A DNA stretch of 15,968 bases, taken from positions 1 to 15,968 of the forward strand of contig CAIKBD010000346.1 of NCBI GenBank assembly GCA_903825565.1, written 5' to 3'. The notes beneath the pieces are model-generated. The model searched no databases. It was not told where the DNA came from and saw only the letters and a program-made list of their open reading frames with translations. This DNA is from an uncultured Anaerolineales bacterium (lineage in GTDB: Bacteria; Chloroflexota; Anaerolineae; UBA4142). The position numbers and the translations under genes were made by a program. Positions 3,957 through 15,146 of this stretch are shown here, in pieces (positions within the stretch are counted from its first letter, which is position 1; each line of letters begins with the position of its first letter).

Positions 3957-4484
3957 CTAGCCGCCGTTGCCGCGTCCTTTGCCCGACCAACCCGGGCGTC
4001 CGTACTGATCGCGCAGTTGCACGTTCGTGCCGGTCGTCAGGTTTTCGATCTTGGTGGTTTCAAAGATGCCGGCTTGATCAAACCCGGTCAGACGAATCTG
4101 ATCGCCGATTTTTGCCGTGAATTTGTTTTCGAGCGCAAAAGACCAGGGCCGATTTTCGACGATCAATTCCTTGCCGTCTGCGGTTTTAATCGCCAGGGTG
4201 ATCGCGTCCACGCTGGCGACGGTGCCGGTCGCGGTCGTGGTTTGCAGTGGTTGCGCCGTGTTCGTGTCGAGTTGCCCCCAGCGTGGACCTTGCCCGCCGT
4301 TGTAGGTTGTGCCGTCGCTCGGCGCGGTCGTGTTCATATTGCCGCGCCCTTGCCCGTAGCCGCCGCCGGTGACTTGCGTGGCGGTCGTCGCGCCGGTTTT
4401 ATCGAGCGTGCGAATGACTGCGCCCACGGCGACGATGCCCAGCGCCAGTGCGATTAGTGAAACGATCAAAATCTTTTTGAACAT
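3957..4484 (-). CDS. Secreted / membrane-anchored hypothetical protein
   Basis: ATG at 4484 with GGAGG SD (TTCACGGAGGTTAAAATG). The N-terminal signal or anchor is MFKKILIVSLIALALGIVAVGAV. A Gly/Thr/Asn-rich low-complexity region follows, then a ~90-aa beta-rich domain (VASVDAITLAIKTADGKELIVENRPWSF...IRLTGF) and a Gly-rich tail. A strong terminator follows the gene. Confidence 0.6.
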   Translation of the reverse strand: MFKKILIVSLIALALGIVAVGAVIRTLDKTGATTATQVTGGGYGQGRGNMNTTAPSDGTTYNGGQGPRWGQLDTNTAQPLQTTTATGTVASVDAITLAIKTADGKELIVENRPWSFALENKFTAKIGDQIRLTGFDQAGIFETTKIENLTTGTNVQLRDQYGRPGWSGKGRGNGG

Positions 4485-5769: not shown

Positions 5770-6897
5770 CTATGGTTTCGGAAAGACTTGGACGAACGCG
5801 CCGTCCTTCACCTGAAAAATGTACACGCGTTGCTCTTTGAGATCGCCGCTCGCGTCGTACGTCACCTTGCCGATGAGCGTCGTCGCGTCGAGCGCGCGGA
5901 TCGCATCGGCAACGCGCGGCGCATCGAGCGTGTTCGCTTTCTTGACGCCTTCCGCCAGCACCAGCATCGCCGCGTAGCCCGGCACGCTATACGTTTCGGG
6001 GTTGCGCGATTCCACTTTTTGATAATCGTTCCACCATTGCTTGTCGCCGACAATTTTCGGATCGGGCGAGATCGCGCCGACGTAGGTGCCTTCGCTCGCG
6101 GGCGCGGCTTCGTCCACGTACGTCGAGTTGAAGCAACCGTCGGAGCAAATGAATTTCGCGGTGATGCCCGCATCGCGTAATTCCGGCAACAGTACCATCC
6201 CTTCGGTTTCATAGCCCGCAAGGAAAACGACATCGGGATTCGCGGTTTTGATCGGCGCGATAAATTTCGCGTACGTCGTTTGCGCTTCCGGGATTTTCAC
6301 GATGGCGGCGGGCGTGATGTTCAATGCTTTGAACGCGTTCGCCATTTGATCGCGCAAGCCGTTGCCGTACTCATTGTCCGCGTGCACGACGACGACGCGC
6401 TTGCCGCCGAGTTGCTCGACGATGAATTTCGCGAGCGCGGGCGCTTGCGCGGCATCGGTCGCGTTGACGCGGAAAAAGTTGCGATAGCCCTGTTTCGTCA
6501 GCGACACTTCGGATGCGGTGGGTGTGATGACGATAAGCGGCAAATCTTTATAGACCTGCATCGCCGCGAGTGTTTGCCCGCTGTTCAAATGTCCGATGAC
6601 GCCGATTACTTTTTTGCCCTGCTTGATCGCGTCCGCGATTTCTTTCGCTTTTTCCGCGGCGACATCCGAATCGGCTTGATCGTCAATCGCGATGACCTTG
6701 ACGGTGTAGCCGAGCAAACCGCCCTGGCGATTGAGTTGATCCGCCATTGTGCGCGCGCCGCCGACGACGGTTTGTCCGCCGTTCGCTTGCCAGCCGGACA
6801 GCGGCGCGACCGCGTAGACGATGACTTCGCCGCGCGGGGCGGTGGCGCAGGCGGTGGCGATGAGCGCGAGCGTGAGCAGTAGGATTATTTTTTTCAT
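5770..6897 (-). CDS. Branched-chain amino acid ABC transporter substrate-binding protein (LivJ/LivK, type I periplasmic binding fold), likely lipoprotein
   Basis: Start MKKIILLLTLALIATACA at the ATG 6895-6897, with GGAG SD 7 nt upstream and a lipobox-like LIATAC. The full-length match to the Leu/Ile/Val-binding family includes VIGHLNSGQTLAA, VVFLAGYETEG and a C-terminal lobe. The 14-aa MSPCHLVLSIRSGS extension in the track is a read-through into the GACAAGG repeat. Confidence 0.85.
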   Translation of the reverse strand: MKKIILLLTLALIATACATAPRGEVIVYAVAPLSGWQANGGQTVVGGARTMADQLNRQGGLLGYTVKVIAIDDQADSDVAAEKAKEIADAIKQGKKVIGVIGHLNSGQTLAAMQVYKDLPLIVITPTASEVSLTKQGYRNFFRVNATDAAQAPALAKFIVEQLGGKRVVVVHADNEYGNGLRDQMANAFKALNITPAAIVKIPEAQTTYAKFIAPIKTANPDVVFLAGYETEGMVLLPELRDAGITAKFICSDGCFNSTYVDEAAPASEGTYVGAISPDPKIVGDKQWWNDYQKVESRNPETYSVPGYAAMLVLAEGVKKANTLDAPRVADAIRALDATTLIGKVTYDASGDLKEQRVYIFQVKDGAFVQVFPKP

Positions 6898-6918: not shown

Positions 6919-6952
6919 GACAAGGTGACAAGGCGACAAGGCGACAAGGCGA
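6919..6952. repeat. GACAAGG-heptad repeat arm R1, the left terminal inverted repeat of the four-helix-bundle cassette
   Basis: GACAAGGTGACAAGGCGACAAGGCGACAAGGCGA is four tandem (N)GACAAGG units. It is 30/34 identical to the reverse complement of 7338-7376. Confidence 0.8.
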
Positions 6953-6958
6953 AGAATT

Positions 6959-7339
6959 CTAACCGATGATCCACTTGTCTGAATGACGAATCATCAAAAC
7001 CAATTTACCGATGATGTTGTCGTAGGTTGTATACAATTCACGTGCCGCTGTGGGTTCAAGATAATTGCATTTAACTGCAAACTCGATCCAAACCTGGGTT
7101 TCATTTGCTTCAGCTTCTGCAATGTTTAGGCAATTCTCAAAAGCACCCTCATATCGTCGTCGGCGCCATGCCTCCGCGATATTCGAGCACACGGCACGTG
7201 ACGAGCGACGAATCTGATCCGTGAGCGAATAGGTTTCCTCTTTTGGAAATTGCTTGGTCAGGGCAAAGATTTCCATCGCGGCATCAAAACCCATCGTGTA
7301 CACTTCTAGGTCACGATGCGTTTTTATTTTATTTGCCAC
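6959..7339 (-). CDS. Four-helix-bundle protein (TIGR02436; 23S rRNA intervening-sequence protein / DGR Avd-like family)
   Basis: The sequence RDLEVYTMGFDAAMEIFALTKQFPKEETYSLTDQIRRSSRAVCSNIAEAWRRRRYEGAFENCLNIAEAEANETQVWIEFAVKCNYL is the canonical signature of this family. The start is uncertain: GTG at 7337-7339 follows AAGGAGA, GTG at 7358-7360 lies inside repeat R2, and ATG (M of MGFD) lies further in. Confidence 0.75.
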   Translation of the reverse strand: MANKIKTHRDLEVYTMGFDAAMEIFALTKQFPKEETYSLTDQIRRSSRAVCSNIAEAWRRRRYEGAFENCLNIAEAEANETQVWIEFAVKCNYLEPTAARELYTTYDNIIGKLVLMIRHSDKWIIG

Positions 7340-7376
7340 GTCTCCTTGTCGCCCTGTCACCGTGTCACCTTGTCCC
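7338..7376. repeat. GACAAGG-heptad repeat arm R2 (reverse orientation), the right terminal inverted repeat of the four-helix-bundle cassette
   Basis: CGTCTCCTTGTCGCCCTGTCACCGTGTCACCTTGTCCCC. Its reverse complement GGGGACAAGGTGACACGGTGACAGGGCGACAAGGAGACG aligns to R1 with 4 mismatches over 34 bp. It overlaps the last 7 codons (RGDKVTR*) of the upstream gene and the 5' end of the four-helix-bundle ORF. Confidence 0.8.
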
Positions 7377-8190
7377 CGCGGTACACCTCATCCATCGCCC
7401 CCTGCAATTCATTCAATTTGGTCACTTGCTCCGCGATGTCATCGCGCAACCTCTGCGACCGGCTGTCCTGGATGTCGTCTTTCGAACGAATCAACATCAA
7501 TTGCGAATACACCGTGCCAAGCGCGGTCAGCGTCGCATCGAGTTGCAGTTCGGCTTGCTCCATCGTGTTCGTGAGTTGCGCCAGGTTTTGCGCTTGCGCC
7601 CGTTTCGAGGCGAGCGTTTGCTTGGCTTGCTCGCGCACCGCGTCATCATCCTCGCGCGCCACCCGTTTTTCGAGTTCGCGCAATGCGCTAGGCGCGGACG
7701 CCGCATCCTGCTTGATAATCTCATCGCGTTCGTACGCATCGAGCCGTTGCGCGAGCCGGAAAATTTGCGCGATCCAATCGGCAATGCCGGCAGTGGACGA
7801 TTGCAAGTGATCGCGCAAAATCCCGGCTTCGCTTGTACGAATCGTCGCTTCGATACGGTTGCGATAATCGAGCGCGCGTTGCACCGCGGCGCGCAGGGAT
7901 GGCGTGTGGATCGTCGCGGGGTTGAACTCTTCGCGCAACATTTCGGAGACAACCTGCGCGCCGGTGTCAATGTCCTGGATGCTCGTGACGATGATCGCGA
8001 TTTCCGCGACCGCGCCAATCACGAGCCAGTACCACCACTGCCACCAATCGAATGGATGTTGCACAAAGTACGCGAGCAAAATCGTGATCGCAATCGTCGC
8101 CGCGCTTTCAAAGCGAAAAAACGCGTGCGTAAGGATCGCGGAGGTTGCGCGGGTGCGAATCGGTGTTTGGTTCGACATAGATAATTGCAT
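7357..8190 (-). CDS. Membrane-anchored coiled-coil protein (2 N-terminal TM helices plus a cytoplasmic helical domain; XpaC/TelA-like by architecture only)
   Basis: Start MQLSMSNQTP at the ATG 8188-8190; MSNQ at 8178 is also possible. There are two TM segments, AITILLAYFVQHPFDWW and WYWLVIGAVAEIAIIVTSI. A ~200-aa Ala/Gln/Arg/Glu-rich predicted coiled-coil domain follows. The gene lies immediately upstream of the flotillin gene in the same orientation. Confidence 0.55.
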   Translation of the reverse strand: MQLSMSNQTPIRTRATSAILTHAFFRFESAATIAITILLAYFVQHPFDWWQWWYWLVIGAVAEIAIIVTSIQDIDTGAQVVSEMLREEFNPATIHTPSLRAAVQRALDYRNRIEATIRTSEAGILRDHLQSSTAGIADWIAQIFRLAQRLDAYERDEIIKQDAASAPSALRELEKRVAREDDDAVREQAKQTLASKRAQAQNLAQLTNTMEQAELQLDATLTALGTVYSQLMLIRSKDDIQDSRSQRLRDDIAEQVTKLNELQGAMDEVYRGDKVTR

Positions 8191-8196
8191 CTCGTT

Positions 8197-8263
8197 GACA
8201 AGGAGACCGGGCGACAAGGGGACAAGGAGAAAAATCTCCTTGTCGCCCTGTCTCCTTGTCTAC
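8197..8263. repeat. Solo palindromic GACAAGG-heptad element R3 (both arms adjacent, no cargo)
   Basis: Left arm GACAAGGAGACCGGGCGACAAGGGGACAAGGAGA, loop AAAAT, right arm TCTCCTTGTCGCCCTGTCTCCTTGTC. The left arm is about 30/34 identical to R1. The arms pair over roughly 23 bp with one extra bulged heptad. It sits in the intergenic region between the flotillin stop and the start of the coiled-coil gene. Confidence 0.8.
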
Positions 8264-8270
8264 TTTATTT

Positions 8271-10238
8271 CTACTTGTCTTGCTTCAAACTCTGCTTGAT
8301 CTGTTCGCGCAATGCTTCCGCTTCGGCGGAACGTTGCGCGCCGGGATTGACTTGCACGCCGAGGCGCTCTGAGAGCAACATCGCGAGCAAACCTTCCATC
8401 ACATTGCCCGTGCTACCTTGCTGACCATCGCCGCTGTTGATCATCACACGCGGCACGACATCAATGCCGGATTGTTGCACGGCTTCGGCGAAACGATTAA
8501 GCACCGTTTGCGTGACCTGGAATTGCGGTCCGCCGTACGCGCGCACTTGCTCTTCGGTCGCCAACGCTTGCGCGATCCCGATACGCGCCACTTTTTCCGA
8601 TTCCGCTTCGGCGAGCGTGCGAATCTGCGACGCCTGTTGCACCGCGCGTTGATACTCGGCTTTACCCTGGTTCGATTGCACCGTGATGCTCAACTCGGAC
8701 TCGGTGATGTGCTTTTGCATTTCCGCGCGCGCCTGCGCCTCGCGCAGTTCGCGTTCCTTGACCGCCGCCGTTTCCTGACGCCCGTACGTTTCGACTTGCT
8801 CGGTGGCGATTTGGCGCGAACGCAACTGCATCAAAATCGTTTCGATTTGTTGATCGTTCGCGGGCGAGGTCGGCGTGCCGATCAACACTTCTTCGAGTTG
8901 CAGATTATAGTGCTGGAATTTTTCCTGCATCTCCTGGCTCGCGATTTGCTGAATCATACTGCGTTCCTGGATCAGTTGAATCAGCGTGCGCGTCTGCGCG
9001 ATGTTCTTGAAATACGCCGACACCATCGGGTCGAGGGTTTGCTCGACGAGGCGTTTAATGTCGCCGAACCGTTGAATGACGAGCGGCGCTTTTTGGTAAT
9101 CAATGTGAATCACGACCGAGAGCGGGAGCGATGGCTCGAACGCATCTTTGGTGATGAGCGACACTTCGGCGAGATTTTCGTCGAGCCGATGCGAGCCGAC
9201 CTCACTGCGAATCCATTTCAAAATAATGTTCGTCGTCGGCACCATAATCACTTTGCCGGCGTAGGTGTTGAACGCATACTTGCCGGGCAGTAACGCTTCG
9301 CTCCACACGCCGCGCTTGCCGCGCTCGACCATCTCACCGTGCCGATACTCTTTGCCGGACAAGTCTGCGCCGAGTTCGCCGGTGTACGACACGACCACGC
9401 CAACATTGCCGACTTCGACAATCGTCTTTTTGATCATTTCGACAGTAGCGAAAAAGCGATTGATATAGTACGTGCCTTCGACCAGCACTTGGAGTTGCCG
9501 CCCGCGCAAACCGTTTGCCGCCAAGAATTTATCGGCGTCTTGGAAATTGTTGTGATACGTCTCCGCGTCCGCCGGCTTGTCGCCGACGATGGGCGCGATG
9601 ATTTCGCCTTGCGGCAAACTGGGCCCATCGTGCACCGTGACGATGCCGACGAGATCATCCGTGTCCTTGATCACGACCGGGCGAAAGCCGTTGCGCTCGG
9701 CGATCACTTCCGCCATCTTGCGAATGACGTCGGCTTCGTCGCGGTTGAGCGGCAGAGAAAACACGCGCTCTTCGGTGATGACGACGAACTGCATCAGGTT
9801 GATCGCGTATGTGCCTTCGCGCAAAATCCGGCGTTGTGGACCGCGTTGCCCGTCGTTGGCAAGAAATGTTTCGACATCCTGGAAATCGCTCACCGTCGCG
9901 TTCGACGCGAGAACCTGGGTCGGATCGAGTTGCTTGCCGTCGCGCGCAAACACATAGCCGATTTTCCCTTGCGTGATCGTGACGAGCGGCGCGATGTGGA
10001 CGTGGTACTGAATCGGCATGAGGTAATGCAAACCGCCGCGCAAAACGTGCGCCTGGTAGCCGGCTTCGCCCGCGAGTGCGATAAATCCGGACTTGAGCGA
10101 ACCCTTGCCGCTGATGCGCTTTTCGACAATGCCGATGCGGCTGTTCGGGATGAAACGAAAACCGGACAGCGCGATCAGCACGACGCAGATGAGCAAGATG
10201 GCGAATGTAAAACCGAGCAGTGGCAGAATGACGTTCAT
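8271..10238 (-). CDS. Flotillin-family SPFH/band-7 protein (YqiK / FloT-like)
   Basis: 655 aa from MNVILPLLGF, the ATG at 10236-10238, with AAGGAGA SD 5 nt upstream. It has an N-terminal TM anchor and an SPFH domain. The long C-terminal flotillin-type coiled coil shows EA-repeat character (AVKERELREAQARAEMQK...AEAESEKVARIGIAQALATEEQVRAYGG). Confidence 0.9.
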   Translation of the reverse strand: MNVILPLLGFTFAILLICVVLIALSGFRFIPNSRIGIVEKRISGKGSLKSGFIALAGEAGYQAHVLRGGLHYLMPIQYHVHIAPLVTITQGKIGYVFARDGKQLDPTQVLASNATVSDFQDVETFLANDGQRGPQRRILREGTYAINLMQFVVITEERVFSLPLNRDEADVIRKMAEVIAERNGFRPVVIKDTDDLVGIVTVHDGPSLPQGEIIAPIVGDKPADAETYHNNFQDADKFLAANGLRGRQLQVLVEGTYYINRFFATVEMIKKTIVEVGNVGVVVSYTGELGADLSGKEYRHGEMVERGKRGVWSEALLPGKYAFNTYAGKVIMVPTTNIILKWIRSEVGSHRLDENLAEVSLITKDAFEPSLPLSVVIHIDYQKAPLVIQRFGDIKRLVEQTLDPMVSAYFKNIAQTRTLIQLIQERSMIQQIASQEMQEKFQHYNLQLEEVLIGTPTSPANDQQIETILMQLRSRQIATEQVETYGRQETAAVKERELREAQARAEMQKHITESELSITVQSNQGKAEYQRAVQQASQIRTLAEAESEKVARIGIAQALATEEQVRAYGGPQFQVTQTVLNRFAEAVQQSGIDVVPRVMINSGDGQQGSTGNVMEGLLAMLLSERLGVQVNPGAQRSAEAEALREQIKQSLKQDK

Positions 10239-13256: not shown

Positions 13257-13329
13257 TGACAAGGTGACAAGGAGACAGGGAGACACGGAGCGATCACCTT
13301 GTCACCTTGTCTCCGTGTCTCCTTGCCTT
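13257..13329. repeat. Solo palindromic GACAAGG-heptad element R5
   Basis: Left arm GACAAGGTGACAAGGAGACAGGGAGACACGGAG, spacer CGATCA, right arm CCTTGTCACCTTGTCTCCGTGTCTCCTTGCCTTG. The left arm is about 28/33 identical to R1. The order of the complementary segments is A-B-A'-B', so the pairing is imperfect or pseudoknot-capable. It sits between the PspA stop and the start of the PBP-like gene. Confidence 0.8.
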
Positions 13330-14099: not shown

Positions 14100-14206
14100 T
14101 TACTCGTCCTGATATTCGTTGGGCGCGACGAACAAGCGTCGAATGGCACCGCCCAGACGCACGCCATTCTTCTCGTGCGTCATTCCGATTTTTTCCGCGA
14201 CGCGCT
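14100..14206 (-). pseudogene. Relic 3' end of a GNAT acetyltransferase gene (last ~36 codons, diverged paralogue of the 14631..15146 C-terminus)
   Basis: It translates to QRVAEKIGMTHEKNGVRLGGAIRRLFVAPNEYQDE*. The intact GNAT ends QRVAEKIGMTHEQDVVRPNGAVRRLYVLHADKQDE*. The 33 bp at 14172-14204 (TCGTGCGTCATTCCGATTTTTTCCGCGACGCG) are identical to 14701-14733, and the rest is about 60-65% identical. There is no upstream coding continuation, because an in-frame stop lies at 14258. Confidence 0.65.
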
Positions 14207-14265
14207 GTAAAAAAACAGTCGCCCGTTTCGAATGGTGAAAGCAACACCAAGTGCGATCTCACATC

Positions 14266-14630: not shown

Positions 14631-15146
14631 TCATTCGTCTTGCTTATCCGCGTGCAGCACATACAACCTTCGCACTGCGCCGTTCGGACGCACCACGTCC
14701 TGCTCGTGCGTCATTCCGATTTTTTCCGCGACGCGTTGCGACGCGCGATTGTCCGGCTCGATCAACGCGACAATGCGCTCCAACTCCAAAACGGTGAACG
14801 CATAGTCGCGAATTGCGCGTGCGATTTCAGTTGCGTACCCGTTGCCCCACACGGGCTTGGCAAAAACATACACCAACTCAATCTCAAGCGCGCCGGCGAT
14901 CTCTTTATCGAGCAAGCCGCAGTGCCCGATGAGCGCGCCGCTCGCCTTTTCGATCACCGGGCACAAATCGAAACGCGGCGGCGGAGCAACTTGCGCGTCT
15001 TGATCAAAAATCGCGATCAACTTTTGATACTCGCGCGGACCGCCCATAAAACGCGTCACGTCGGGATCCGTCCAGAGTGCCGCGAGTGCGGGCGCGTCGT
15101 CAGTGCGGAGTGAGCGCAAAAGCAAGCGAGAGGTTTCGAGGTTCAT
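14631..15146 (-). CDS. GNAT family N-acetyltransferase (RimJ/RimL-like)
   Basis: 171 aa from MNLETSRLLLRSLRTDDAPALAALWTDPDV, the typical RimJ/RimL N-terminus. The acetyl-CoA binding core is present: GHCGLLDKEIAGALEIELVYVFAKPVWGNGYATEIARAIRDYAF. The C-terminal motif is ALIEPDNRASQRVAEKIGM. The track ORF's 21-aa N-terminal extension is not supported. Confidence 0.85.
   Translation of the reverse strand: MNLETSRLLLRSLRTDDAPALAALWTDPDVTRFMGGPREYQKLIAIFDQDAQVAPPPRFDLCPVIEKASGALIGHCGLLDKEIAGALEIELVYVFAKPVWGNGYATEIARAIRDYAFTVLELERIVALIEPDNRASQRVAEKIGMTHEQDVVRPNGAVRRLYVLHADKQDE

What the first reader, a model, noticed from the sequence alone, without database searches (positions are those of the whole stretch)
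6919..7376. Four-helix-bundle (Avd / 23S-rRNA-IVS family) gene carried in a ~460-bp cassette bounded by 34-bp inverted repeats of a GACAAGG-heptad element, with solo copies of the same palindrome elsewhere
R1 (6919-6952) and the reverse complement of R2 (7338-7376) are 30/34 identical and inverted. They bracket exactly one gene, the TIGR02436 four-helix-bundle protein. The same 34-mer family occurs at 8197-8263 and 13257-13329 with the two arms directly adjacent, a hairpin with no cargo. So the element exists as empty palindromes and as a split palindrome with the gene between its arms. Two gene ends are affected. The upstream coiled-coil gene ends inside R2 with the repeat-encoded RGDKVTR*. 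The LivK-like ORF reads through R1 as MSPCHLV.... Both facts argue that the cassette was inserted into a pre-existing operon. This family is classically encoded inside rRNA intervening sequences flanked by inverted repeats that RNase III cleaves, and it includes the Avd accessory protein of diversity-generating retroelements. Here the same logic appears inside a polycistronic mRNA. If the whole minus-strand array is co-transcribed, R1/R2 would form a 34-bp RNA stem able to excise or process the four-helix-bundle message. I see no reverse transcriptase and no template or variable repeats here, so this does not look like a DGR.
Basis: partly seen in the sequence, partly recalled or inferred. Interest (0 to 1): 0.75.

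Follow-up and report, generated by a model that had tools for sequence, protein, structure and literature searches.

The report
Hairpin-nested four-helix-bundle gene cassette

Summary
A (GACAAGGN)x4 array (6919-6952) and its inverted copy (7336-7376) pair 30/34. They bracket one gene that hits PF05635 (1.4e-30) and TIGR02436 (98 bits). Two cargo-less hairpins of the same repeat lie at 8194-8265 and 13257-13329.

Three corrections:
- The repeat unit is 8 nt, not 7.
- The LivK-like gene starts at ATG 6897, outside R1, so "MSPCHLV" is an ORF-extension artefact.
- The cassette is old. Relatives carry the orthologous 4HB gene upstream of LivK, with an extra HNH gene between the arms.

The arrangement is family-wide. 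Of 76 metagenomic relatives (58-75% identity), 66 have a purine-rich tandem-repeat arm upstream and its complement downstream. The repeat sequence differs between loci, but the two arms of one locus match. Distant paralogues use 7-8-nt units. The Coxiella 23S IVS has the same plan. None of the cassettes lies in rRNA.

Best reading: an IVS-type, promoter-less cassette transcribed with its host operon. Its arms form a ~34-bp RNA stem that hides its ribosome-binding site and is a likely RNase III substrate. Processing is inferred, not shown. This is a new variant of a known kind, and I found no description of it in the searched literature.

The parts
7336..7376 (-). 5' arm (R2): five GACANGGN octamers on the transcribed (minus) strand, purine-rich. 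It holds the last 6 codons and the TGA stop (7359-7357) of the coiled-coil gene. It also holds both candidate start codons of the 4HB gene (GTG 7360, GTG 7339) and the Shine-Dalgarno-like GGTGA and AAGGAG motifs.
6959..7339 (-). Four-helix-bundle gene, 126 aa from GTG 7339 (133 aa if GTG 7360 is used). It belongs to PF05635 / TIGR02436. Its GC3 is 0.47, against 0.71-0.75 in the neighbouring genes.
6919..6952 (-). 3' arm (R1): four octamers, read as (NCCTTGTC)n on the transcribed strand, pyrimidine-rich. It starts 6 nt after the 4HB stop codon and ends 21 nt before the LivK-like ATG.
8194..8265 (.). Solo hairpin of the same octamer family (arms 29 nt, 90% complementary, short loop), in the gap between the Band_7 gene stop and the coiled-coil gene ATG (8190). 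A hairpin occupies this position in three relatives, in two of them with a different repeat unit.
13257..13329 (.). Solo hairpin of the same octamer family, in the gap between the PspA-family gene stop (13340) and the ATG (13242) of the solute-binding-protein-like gene.
7357..8190 (-). Coiled-coil gene (277 aa from ATG 8190; public aa). Its C-terminal tail RGDKVTR* is encoded by arm R2.
5770..6897 (-). LivK-like periplasmic binding lipoprotein (375 aa). Its true start is ATG 6897, outside R1.

Best explanation
This is an intervening-sequence-type (IVS-type) gene cassette that sits in an mRNA operon instead of an rRNA gene. A promoter-less but functional PF05635 four-helix-bundle gene fills the loop of a long hairpin. 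The 5' arm of the hairpin is a purine-rich array of 8-nt tandem repeats, and the 3' arm is the complementary pyrimidine-rich array.

**Proposed mechanism**
- The cassette lies in an intercistronic gap of a co-oriented gene array and is transcribed by read-through.
- In the transcript the arms pair into a ~34-bp stem. The stem holds the flanking cistrons together and buries the cassette's start codon and Shine-Dalgarno-like motifs.
- Ribosomes finishing the upstream coiled-coil gene must melt the 5' arm, because that gene's stop codon lies inside it and overlaps GTG 7360 as GTGA. This could couple 4HB translation to the upstream gene.
- A ~34-bp duplex is the kind of substrate RNase III cuts. 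Cleavage would release the 4HB message and separate the upstream and downstream cistrons, as happens for the homologous cassettes in 23S rRNA.
- The two solo hairpins are cargo-less members of the same repeat family and would act as intercistronic processing or stability elements.

**History**
The element is a long-term resident at this site. It was inherited vertically, is lost or absent in some close relatives, and lost an HNH gene in this lineage.

**Shown versus inferred**
- Shown: the anatomy, the family-wide architecture, arm-to-arm covariation, purifying selection, and presence/absence among relatives.
- Inferred: co-transcription, RNA pairing in vivo, RNase III cleavage, and translational coupling.
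For: **Anatomy and significance.**

**Family.** PF05635 at 1.4e-30, TIGR02436 at 98 bits, PDB 2GSC at 1.8e-9.

**Architecture across the family.**
- In 76 evaluable metagenomic loci (58-75% identity), the 130-nt upstream flank and the 190-nt downstream flank are complementary at >=16/20 in 66 and >=18/20 in 40.
- Ungapped stems have a median length of 35.5 bp.
- Loops have a median length of 436 nt. The 3' arm starts a median of 11 nt after the stop codon.

**Covariation.** The unit sequence differs between loci (GGAGACAA, GGGGAGAG, GGTGACGG, GGAGCGGA, GGGGATGA and others). The arms of one locus match each other far better than they match the arms of other loci: >=18/20 in 53% against 9%, p=4e-23.

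**Polarity.** The purine arm is always 5'. In a partner search, 66 arrays had a downstream inverted partner and 3 had an upstream one.

**Distant paralogues.** They carry 7-8-nt units of other composition, for example AGGAGTC/GACTCCT at 20/20.

**Different operons.** Close homologues sit between PFOR beta and gamma, between UbiX and a methyltransferase, and upstream of LivK, always with arms.

**Functional protein.** dN/dS is 0.054 between L124 and L213.

**Sense-strand bias.** The sense-RNA duplex is more stable than the antisense one in 50 loci against 24, p=0.009.

**Conserved hairpin position.** The Band_7 | coiled-coil gap holds a stable hairpin in the window, L124, L214 and L212, although the repeat unit is replaced.

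**Precedent.** The Coxiella 23S IVS has a 28-bp terminal stem, RNase III excision shown in vitro, an S23p ORF, and a variable number of GACAGAT tandem repeats in the 5' arm (PMC4990558).

**No own signals.** No convincing promoter or terminator lies next to the cassette.
Against: - There are no RNA data. Co-transcription and cleavage are inferred.
- G:U against A:C mismatch counts in the stems (168 against 150) do not differ significantly. The window's own stem and its solo hairpins fold equally well or better on the antisense strand. Pairing could therefore matter at the DNA level.
- Co-orientation with neighbours (upstream 30/37, downstream 27/37) is, from general knowledge, probably not far above the usual same-strand rate for adjacent bacterial genes. 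It also rests on a crude gene caller.
- In Coxiella, RNase III removes the Shine-Dalgarno region and the protein appears not to be made. Here the protein is under strong purifying selection, so the analogy cannot be complete.
- RNase III cleavage inside an operon would usually cost the host something. That is hard to square with retention at the same site across species.
Confidence: 0.5

Rival explanations
1. DNA-level mobile element. The arms would be terminal inverted repeats of a small transposon-like element. The 4HB gene (plus HNH in some copies) would be its cargo or mobility factor, and the solo hairpins would be MITE-like internal-deletion derivatives that spread in the genome. This does not exclude RNA-level processing.
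For: - Presence is patchy among close relatives. It is present in the window, L213 and L124, and absent in L212 (93% LivK identity), L214 and L215.
- Homologues of 73-78% identity sit in unrelated operons.
- Repeat arrays of the same type occur elsewhere in the same locus in 10/65 loci, against 9/325 for arrays of another locus's type.
- Contigs break at the arrays, and many homologues sit on contigs of 1-2 kb.
- The gene has lower GC than its flanks in 61/61 loci.
- An HNH nuclease lies within the arms in L124 and L213.
- Ralph and McClelland proposed that IVSs are mobile (cited in PMC4990558).
Against: - No transposase, integrase or reverse transcriptase is present.
- No target-site duplication could be recognised.
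- HNH is confined to the LivK-site lineage.
- Each site is stably inherited across species (LivK, PFOR and UbiX sites).
- No look-up showed an identical protein in two different contexts.
- Arm sequence changes much faster than the protein. Only 12% of pairs share an arm type at 65-75% protein identity. That is unlike a transposase-TIR pair.
- The subfamily is essentially absent from viral contigs.
Confidence: 0.2
2. Passive lodger. Tandem-repeat hairpins would be host intercistronic elements of the STRR type, with their own function or none. A hairpin loop would simply be a tolerated place for a small promoter-less gene, as helix tips are in rRNA. The arms would then say nothing about how the 4HB gene works.
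For: - Only 3 of 120 GACANGG-array loci in reference genomes hold a 4HB gene within 8 kb. Solo hairpins and arrays are therefore far more common than cassettes.
- The hairpin at the Band_7 | coiled-coil gap is conserved in position without any cargo.
- Arm type follows the local genome rather than the protein.
- Arms can bracket other cargo: HNH plus 4HB, a non-coding 383-nt insert in L038, and a ferredoxin-motif segment inside a gene in L126.
- STRR hairpins between hupS and hupL are known in cyanobacteria (PMC2670836).
Against: - The association is too regular: 66/76 relatives plus distant paralogues have arms.
- The arms abut the ORF, starting a median of 11 nt after the stop codon.
- The start codon and Shine-Dalgarno-like motifs lie in the last repeat units.
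- The Coxiella IVS carries its own repeat arms into rRNA, where no host STRR hairpin exists.
Confidence: 0.2
3. Invertible switch or DGR remnant. Either the inverted repeats would mediate DNA inversion of the gene, or the gene would be an orphan Avd from a decayed diversity-generating retroelement.
For: Inverted repeats flank the gene. There are weak hits to bAvd (PF22296, E=0.0012) and to the Avd equivalog.
Against: - All orthologous copies at the LivK, PFOR and UbiX sites have the same orientation relative to their flanks.
- No recombinase is present.
- No reverse transcriptase is present.
- The only long repeat in the window is a duplicated GNAT gene end, and its mismatches are not adenine-specific.
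- Avd scores 22.9 bits against a cut-off of 80.
Confidence: 0.02

Closest known systems
23S rRNA intervening sequences (IVS) that carry an S23p / PF05635 ORF (Coxiella burnetii, Leptospira and others)
   Same: - The gene family is the same.
- The ORF fills the loop between terminal inverted repeats that form a stem of roughly 28-35 bp.
- The 5' arm contains short tandem repeats with a GACA core and a variable copy number (GACAGAT in Coxiella; PMC4990558).
- The element has no promoter and is transcribed from the host unit.
   Different: - It lies between protein-coding cistrons, not in an rRNA helix. Rfam finds nothing in the window, and no rRNA motifs lie near any of the roughly 90 cassettes examined.
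- The unit is 8 nt.
- The protein is under strong purifying selection (dN/dS 0.054). The Coxiella ORF is decaying and apparently not translated.
- RNase III excision has not been shown here.
STRR (short tandemly repeated repetitive) hairpins of filamentous cyanobacteria, for example between hupS and hupL
   Same: Both are intercistronic hairpins built from short tandem repeats, present in many copies per genome, with unknown function (PMC2670836). The two solo hairpins in the window fit this description. Octamer arrays of the window's type were also found in many cyanobacterial genomes.
   Different: - STRRs are described as 7-bp units in cyanobacteria. Here the units are 8 nt (9 nt in L212) in an uncultured bacterium whose closest annotated relatives are Chloroflexi / Anaerolineae MAGs.
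- As far as I could find, no gene cargo has been described for STRRs.
RNase III processing hairpins between cistrons (phage T7 early mRNA sites; the rnc and rpsO-pnp leaders)
   Same: Both are long intercistronic stems in polycistronic RNA that could separate cistrons and leave protective ends. This comparison rests on established knowledge, not on a test made here.
   Different: Those sites are single conserved hairpins, not tandem-repeat palindromes, and they do not enclose a gene.
MITEs and REP/BIME elements
   Same: Both are short multi-copy palindromic elements in intergenic regions, and some are related to a longer gene-carrying element.
   Different: - No transposase or RAYT was seen.
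- The arms are variable-length tandem arrays whose sequence turns over quickly.
- No target-site duplication was recognised.
Integron gene cassettes
   Same: Both are promoter-less single-ORF cassettes associated with an imperfect palindrome.
   Different: - An attC site lies only 3' of the ORF and is recombined by IntI at an attI site.
- Here the ORF lies between the two halves of the palindrome, no integrase is present, and the cassettes are scattered singly in housekeeping operons.
bAvd, the accessory protein of diversity-generating retroelements
   Same: The four-helix-bundle fold superfamily is shared, with weak HMM hits.
   Different: The score is below the family cut-off, and no reverse transcriptase, template repeat or variable repeat is present.

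Membership tests
PF05635 / TIGR02436 four-helix-bundle (23S rRNA IVS protein) family | Profile HMM score above the curated cut-off | tested here: met
   PF05635 scores 106.1 bits against a cut-off of 33.8. TIGR02436 scores 98.2 bits against 24. PDB 2GSC and 2RLD match at 1.8e-9 and 2.4e-8.
rRNA intervening sequence (IVS) element | Located inside a 23S (or 16S) rRNA gene, at a helix tip | tested here: not met
   Rfam finds no match in the window. The flanks are protein-coding genes. No rRNA signature lies near any related cassette.
rRNA intervening sequence (IVS) element | Terminal inverted repeats that form a long stem enclosing the element | tested here: met
   The arms are 34 nt and 30/34 complementary. 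The minimum-free-energy fold pairs R2 with R1, z -6.4.
rRNA intervening sequence (IVS) element | Excision from the precursor RNA by RNase III | not testable with these tools
   This needs end-mapping or an in-vitro cleavage assay. Only the Coxiella precedent is available.
Diversity-generating retroelement | Reverse transcriptase gene together with a template/variable repeat pair that differs at adenines | tested here: not met
   No reverse-transcriptase domain occurs in any window ORF. The only long repeat (14104-14207 / 14635-14738) is a duplicated GNAT gene end with mismatches that are not adenine-specific.
Diversity-generating retroelement | Avd equivalog (NF033474) above its cut-off | tested here: not met
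   It scores 22.9 bits against a cut-off of 80.
Transposon / MITE | A transposase (in cis or elsewhere) and target-site duplications | tested here: inconclusive
   No transposase is present in the window or the related loci. The empty-site relative L215 is too diverged (about 71% DNA identity) to read a duplication.
Transposon / MITE | Near-identical copies at different genomic sites | tested here: inconclusive
   Exact-protein look-ups returned only the same context each time. No complete genome was available.
Integron cassette | An attC site 3' of the ORF plus an IntI integrase and attI platform | tested here: not met
   The palindrome halves lie on both sides of the ORF, and no integrase domain is present.
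Intrinsic terminator | A GC-rich hairpin followed by a U-tract | tested here: not met
   The terminator scan reports no site at the arms or at the solo hairpins. The sequences that follow them lack T runs.
STRR-type tandem-repeat hairpin (applies to the solo hairpins) | An intergenic hairpin made of short tandem repeats, present in many copies | tested here: met
   All arrays have period 8. The folds are stable. More than 120 loci in reference genomes carry the same unit. The unit is 8 nt rather than the classic 7.

The most novel reading that the evidence does not exclude
PF05635 genes and short-tandem-repeat hairpins would together form one self-maintaining genetic system found across bacterial phyla. 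The four-helix-bundle protein, a ring-forming oligomer in solved relatives, would recognise the repeated arms or the hairpin structure itself. It would then either regulate every such hairpin in the cell or direct insertion into, and rewriting of, hairpin loops. On this reading the 23S rRNA intervening sequences are only the best-known landing site, STRR-like hairpins are the system's footprints, and it is a mobile or regulatory element class with no recognisable transposase.

Observations the evidence does not explain otherwise:
- Each locus has its own repeat unit, yet its two arms match.
- An orthologous hairpin keeps its position while its unit is replaced, even changing from 8 to 9 nt.
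- About a quarter of cassettes (18 of 76 loci with a direct upstream/downstream match) have an extra purine array after the gene, which permits alternative pairings.
Probability: 0.15. Interest if true: 0.85.

Novelty: new variant of a known kind. Interest (0 to 1): 0.68.

Why it matters
- **An uncharacterised family gets a testable rule.** The PF05635 / TIGR02436 family is large: 8,320 clusters at 50% identity reach E<=1e-3 from this one sequence. It has had no known function since the rRNA intervening sequences were found. Members have been noticed inside cas operons (PMC3936711). In an annotated Flavobacterium genome table one lies between the guanylate kinase and NaMN adenylyltransferase genes. 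Neither placement was explained. The rule suggested here is that the gene lives in the loop of a tandem-repeat hairpin, whatever the host transcript is.
- **Three puzzles are linked.** These are the origin of rRNA intervening sequences, the STRR-like repeat hairpins, and the scattered 'four helix bundle protein' genes.
- **It points to simple experiments.** Examples are RNase III mapping and protein-repeat binding assays.
- **It matters for annotation.**
  - Arm-encoded extensions corrupt neighbouring gene models, as with the coiled-coil tail here, the false LivK start, and the 133-aa 4HB call.
  - The repeats break metagenome assemblies.

Tried and rejected
- **4HB genes next to octamer arrays in reference genomes.** I built a profile from close homologues to look for 4HB genes beside the 120 octamer-array loci. 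Only L019, L021 and L067 had one. The arrays are therefore mostly cargo-less, and the idea that every array marks a cassette was dropped.
- **G:U against A:C mismatch test for sense-strand RNA selection.** It was not significant, 168 against 150. Only the duplex-energy comparison leaned toward the sense strand.
- **HNH as a general cassette component.** It occurs only in L124, L125 and L213.
- **4HB remnants in solo or large-loop hairpins.** None were found.
- **Phage carriage.** A scan of viral contigs gave one weak hit without arms.
- **Rfam on the window.** Nothing was found.
- **PADLOC defence models for the 4HB protein.** No hit.
- **DGR reading.** Rejected.
- **Invertible-segment reading.** Rejected, because orientation is constant at three orthologous sites.
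- **Literature.** Searches for PF05635, TIGR02436, 23S_rRNA_IVP and the repeat sequence itself found no description of the arms outside rRNA.
- **Organism name.** Cluster look-up returned none. The closest named relatives are Chloroflexi / Anaerolineae MAGs.
- **Strict GACANGG scan on L212 and L214.** It wrongly suggested there were no hairpins. By eye and by folding, hairpins with other units are present.
Full report
**1. What is in the window**

All sizeable genes around the finding lie on the minus strand. In transcription order they are:
- a PspA-family gene
- solo hairpin 13257-13329
- a solute-binding-like gene
- a VWA gene
- a Band_7 gene
- solo hairpin 8194-8265
- a coiled-coil gene
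- arm R2, the four-helix-bundle (4HB) gene, arm R1
- a LivK-like lipoprotein gene, followed by further genes

R1 (6919-6952) is (GACAAGGN)x4. R2 (7336-7376) is its inverted copy. The arms are 34 nt and 30/34 complementary. A three-unit pattern with up to 3 mismatches hits 13 times, all in the three elements, and never in 200 shuffles. Tandem Repeats Finder reports period 8 for all six arrays, so the unit is an octamer with one free position.

The enclosed ORF hits PF05635 (1.4e-30) and TIGR02436 (98 bits against a cut-off of 24). Its nearest solved structures are 2GSC and 2RLD. The DGR Avd equivalog scores far below its cut-off (22.9 against 80).

The minus-strand RNA 7400-6900 folds with R2 paired to R1 (z -6.4). 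Both solo hairpins are very stable (z -8.2 and -5.3). The same locus, cassette included, is present on 8 contigs from independent assemblies, so it is not an assembly artefact.

**2.

- The LivK-like gene starts at ATG 6897 (MKKIILLLTLALIATACA, a lipoprotein signal, preceded by GGAGTGG). That is 21 nt downstream of R1. The exact 375-aa product is what public gene calls contain. 'MSPCHLV' is the TTG-extended mechanical ORF.
- The coiled-coil ORF does end in R2 (RGDKVTR*). Orthologues have different tails, so the arm has replaced the native C-terminus.
- The coiled-coil stop TGA (7359-7357) overlaps GTG 7360, the public 133-aa start of the 4HB gene. GTG 7339 gives a 126-aa protein that matches the N-termini of homologues. 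Either way the start codon and the Shine-Dalgarno-like GGTGA and AAGGAG motifs are inside the arm.
- The 4HB gene has GC3 of 0.47, against 0.71-0.75 for its neighbours.

**3. The arrangement is a property of the gene family**

The protein has thousands of relatives. From this one sequence, 8,320 clusters at 50% identity reach E<=1e-3.

Look-ups of four close homologues (73-83% identity) found them in unrelated places:
- upstream of the LivK orthologue
- between the beta and gamma subunits of a 2-oxoacid:ferredoxin oxidoreductase (PFOR)
- between a UbiX-type flavoprotein and a methyltransferase
- among small toxin-antitoxin-like genes

Three of these four loci have octamer arrays upstream and the inverted arrays downstream, directly abutting the gene. 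In the fourth (L124, the LivK site) the upstream arm lies beyond an extra HNH gene.

A metagenome scan returned 80 further loci at 58-75% identity. Results for the 76 with enough flank:
- 66 show >=16/20 inverted complementarity between the upstream and downstream flanks, and 40 show >=18/20.
- Ungapped stems have a median length of 35.5 bp.
- Loops have a median length of 436 nt. The 3' arm begins a median of 11 nt after the stop codon.
- The upstream arm is purine-rich, with a median purine fraction of 0.85.

The repeat unit differs from locus to locus (GGAGACAA, GGTGACAA, GGGGAGAG, GGTGACGG, GGAGCGGA, GGGGATGA, GGTGATGG, GGAGATAG and others). Yet the arms of one locus match each other far better than they match the arms of other loci: >=18/20 in 53% of self comparisons against 9% of cross comparisons, p=4e-23. 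That is covariation between the two arms.

More distant PF05635 paralogues in the same loci have arms of 7- or 8-nt units with quite different composition, for example AGGAGTC/GACTCCT at 20/20 and TCGTAAT/ATTACGA at 19/20.

None of the cassettes lies in rRNA. The subfamily is essentially absent from viral contigs.

**4. The solo hairpins**

The hosts include Chloroflexota, Cyanobacteria, Planctomycetota, Acidobacteriota and Bacteroidales.

Many of these loci are hairpins with the purine arm first. In a partner search that also included the window and the first homologue loci, 66 arrays had a downstream inverted partner and 3 had an upstream one. Only three loci carry a 4HB gene (L019, L021, L067), so cargo-less elements dominate.

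In the window's relatives, the gap upstream of the coiled-coil gene holds a stable hairpin in every case. This gap follows Band_7 in the window, L212 and L214, and follows the VWA gene in L124. The unit is GACAAGG-type in the window and L124, GAGTATGG/GGGTGAGG in L214, and a 9-nt CACGAAGGN unit in L212. The position is conserved while the sequence is replaced.

Arrays of a locus's own type recur nearby in 10/65 loci, against 9/325 for foreign types. Arm type is shared only between proteins of >=75% identity. Contigs L002 and L003 begin at the window's two hairpins, as expected for multi-copy repeats.

**5. History of this copy**

| Locus | LivK identity to window | Cassette upstream of LivK |
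|---|---|---|
| L212 | 93% | none |
| L213 | 85% | arm - HNH - 4HB - arm |
| L124 | 81% (4HB 83%) | arm - HNH - 4HB - arm; DNA colinear at 79% through 4HB, 3' arm and LivK |
| L214 | 80% | none |
| L215 | 74% | none; coiled-coil gene followed directly by LivK across a plain spacer of roughly 90 nt (the empty site) |

The cassette is therefore an insertion into this gene array, but an old one. It has been inherited vertically and lost or replaced in some lineages. In the window's lineage it lost HNH and abuts the coiled-coil gene.

The same holds for the PFOR and UbiX sites. Orthologous cassettes persist there across species, with varying repeat copy number, which even differs between samples L128 and L129.

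The protein is under strong purifying selection: dN/dS is 0.054 between L124 and L213, and 35 columns are invariant among 31 sequences. The gene has lower GC than its flanks in 61/61 loci while still tracking host GC.

**6. Mechanism**

The closest characterised system is the Coxiella 23S IVS. It has a 28-bp stem from terminal inverted repeats, excision by RNase III shown in vitro, an S23p ORF in the loop, and a variable number of tandem GACAGAT repeats upstream of the ORF (PMC4990558).

The window's element has the same plan in an mRNA. I therefore favour this reading:
- transcription by read-through from the operon
- pairing of the arms in the RNA
- masking of the ribosome-binding site
- RNase III cleavage

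The GTGA overlap offers a route to translation when ribosomes open the 5' arm.

Support from sequence alone is limited. Sense-strand duplexes are more stable than antisense ones in 50 loci against 24 (p=0.009), but G:U against A:C counts are not significantly different. DNA-level roles are not excluded. These include terminal repeats of a mobile element and cruciform targets. They may also coexist with RNA processing.

A further possibility is that the 4HB oligomer binds the repeats. About a quarter of cassettes carry a second purine array after the gene, which allows alternative pairings.

**7. Novelty**

Papers in the searchable library mention PF05635 genes in rRNA insertions and inside cas operons. 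They also describe STRR hairpins between cyanobacterial genes. I found none that describes tandem-repeat arms around non-rRNA PF05635 genes or that links them to STRR-like hairpins.

I rate this a new variant of a known kind: the IVS element outside rRNA. It has good generality and clear experiments to follow.

Noticed in passing
window 14104-14207 and 14635-14738: A 104-nt direct repeat (73% identical) is a second, fragmentary copy of the 3' end of the GNAT acetyltransferase gene, lying just upstream of the PspA-family gene. The mismatches are not adenine-specific, so it is not a DGR template/variable repeat pair.
   Followed up: yes
L124 2598-3421 and L213 3169-3984: In two syntenic relatives the octamer arms enclose two genes: a small HNH endonuclease (about 90-114 aa, weakly similar to the IscB/Cas9 HNH domain) followed by the 4HB gene. 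The window's copy lacks the HNH gene.
   Followed up: partly
L126 6106-6144 and 6281-6319: A pair of inverted octamer arrays lies inside a coding sequence (a Pyr_redox/Fer4 protein). It brackets a CxxCxxCxxxCP ferredoxin-motif segment, and the arrays are read in their only open frame (QGDKVTGRQGD).
   Followed up: no
L038 1039-1475: ACACGGAG-type inverted arms enclose a 383-nt AT-rich insert. It has no ORF but contains internal inverted repeats, so it may be a non-coding cargo.
   Followed up: no
L212 1085-1230, L214 150-232, L124 312-400, window 8185-8275: The orthologous gap before the coiled-coil gene holds a stable hairpin in all four relatives, but the repeat unit differs: an 8-nt GACAAGG type, an 8-nt GAGTATGG/GGGTGAGG type, and a 9-nt CACGAAGGN type. 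Both arms have changed together.
   Followed up: partly
L145, L198, L204: Two or three PF05635 genes occur within 3-6 kb, each with its own arm type. L198 contains the cyanobacterial HIP1 motif GCGATCGC and uses heptamer arms.
   Followed up: partly
L002 1-45 and L003 1-116 (window 13258-13327 and 8197-8260): Independent metagenome contigs of this locus start at or inside the solo hairpins. This suggests the repeats break assemblies. Many 4HB homologues also sit on contigs of only 1-2 kb.
   Followed up: partly
window 8190 and 13242: The genes that follow the two solo hairpins start 4-15 nt after the 3' arm and have no clear Shine-Dalgarno sequence of their own.
   Followed up: no
window 6983-6956 (minus strand): A weak promoter-like match (TTCAGA, 16 nt spacer, TAGAAT) lies in the last codons of the 4HB gene, upstream of the LivK-like gene. 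The number of such matches in the region is not above chance.
   Followed up: no
L002 9303-9404 against window about 4000-4054: One sample's contig differs from the window by an indel or rearrangement near the 175-aa ORF, and that gene is not called there.
   Followed up: no
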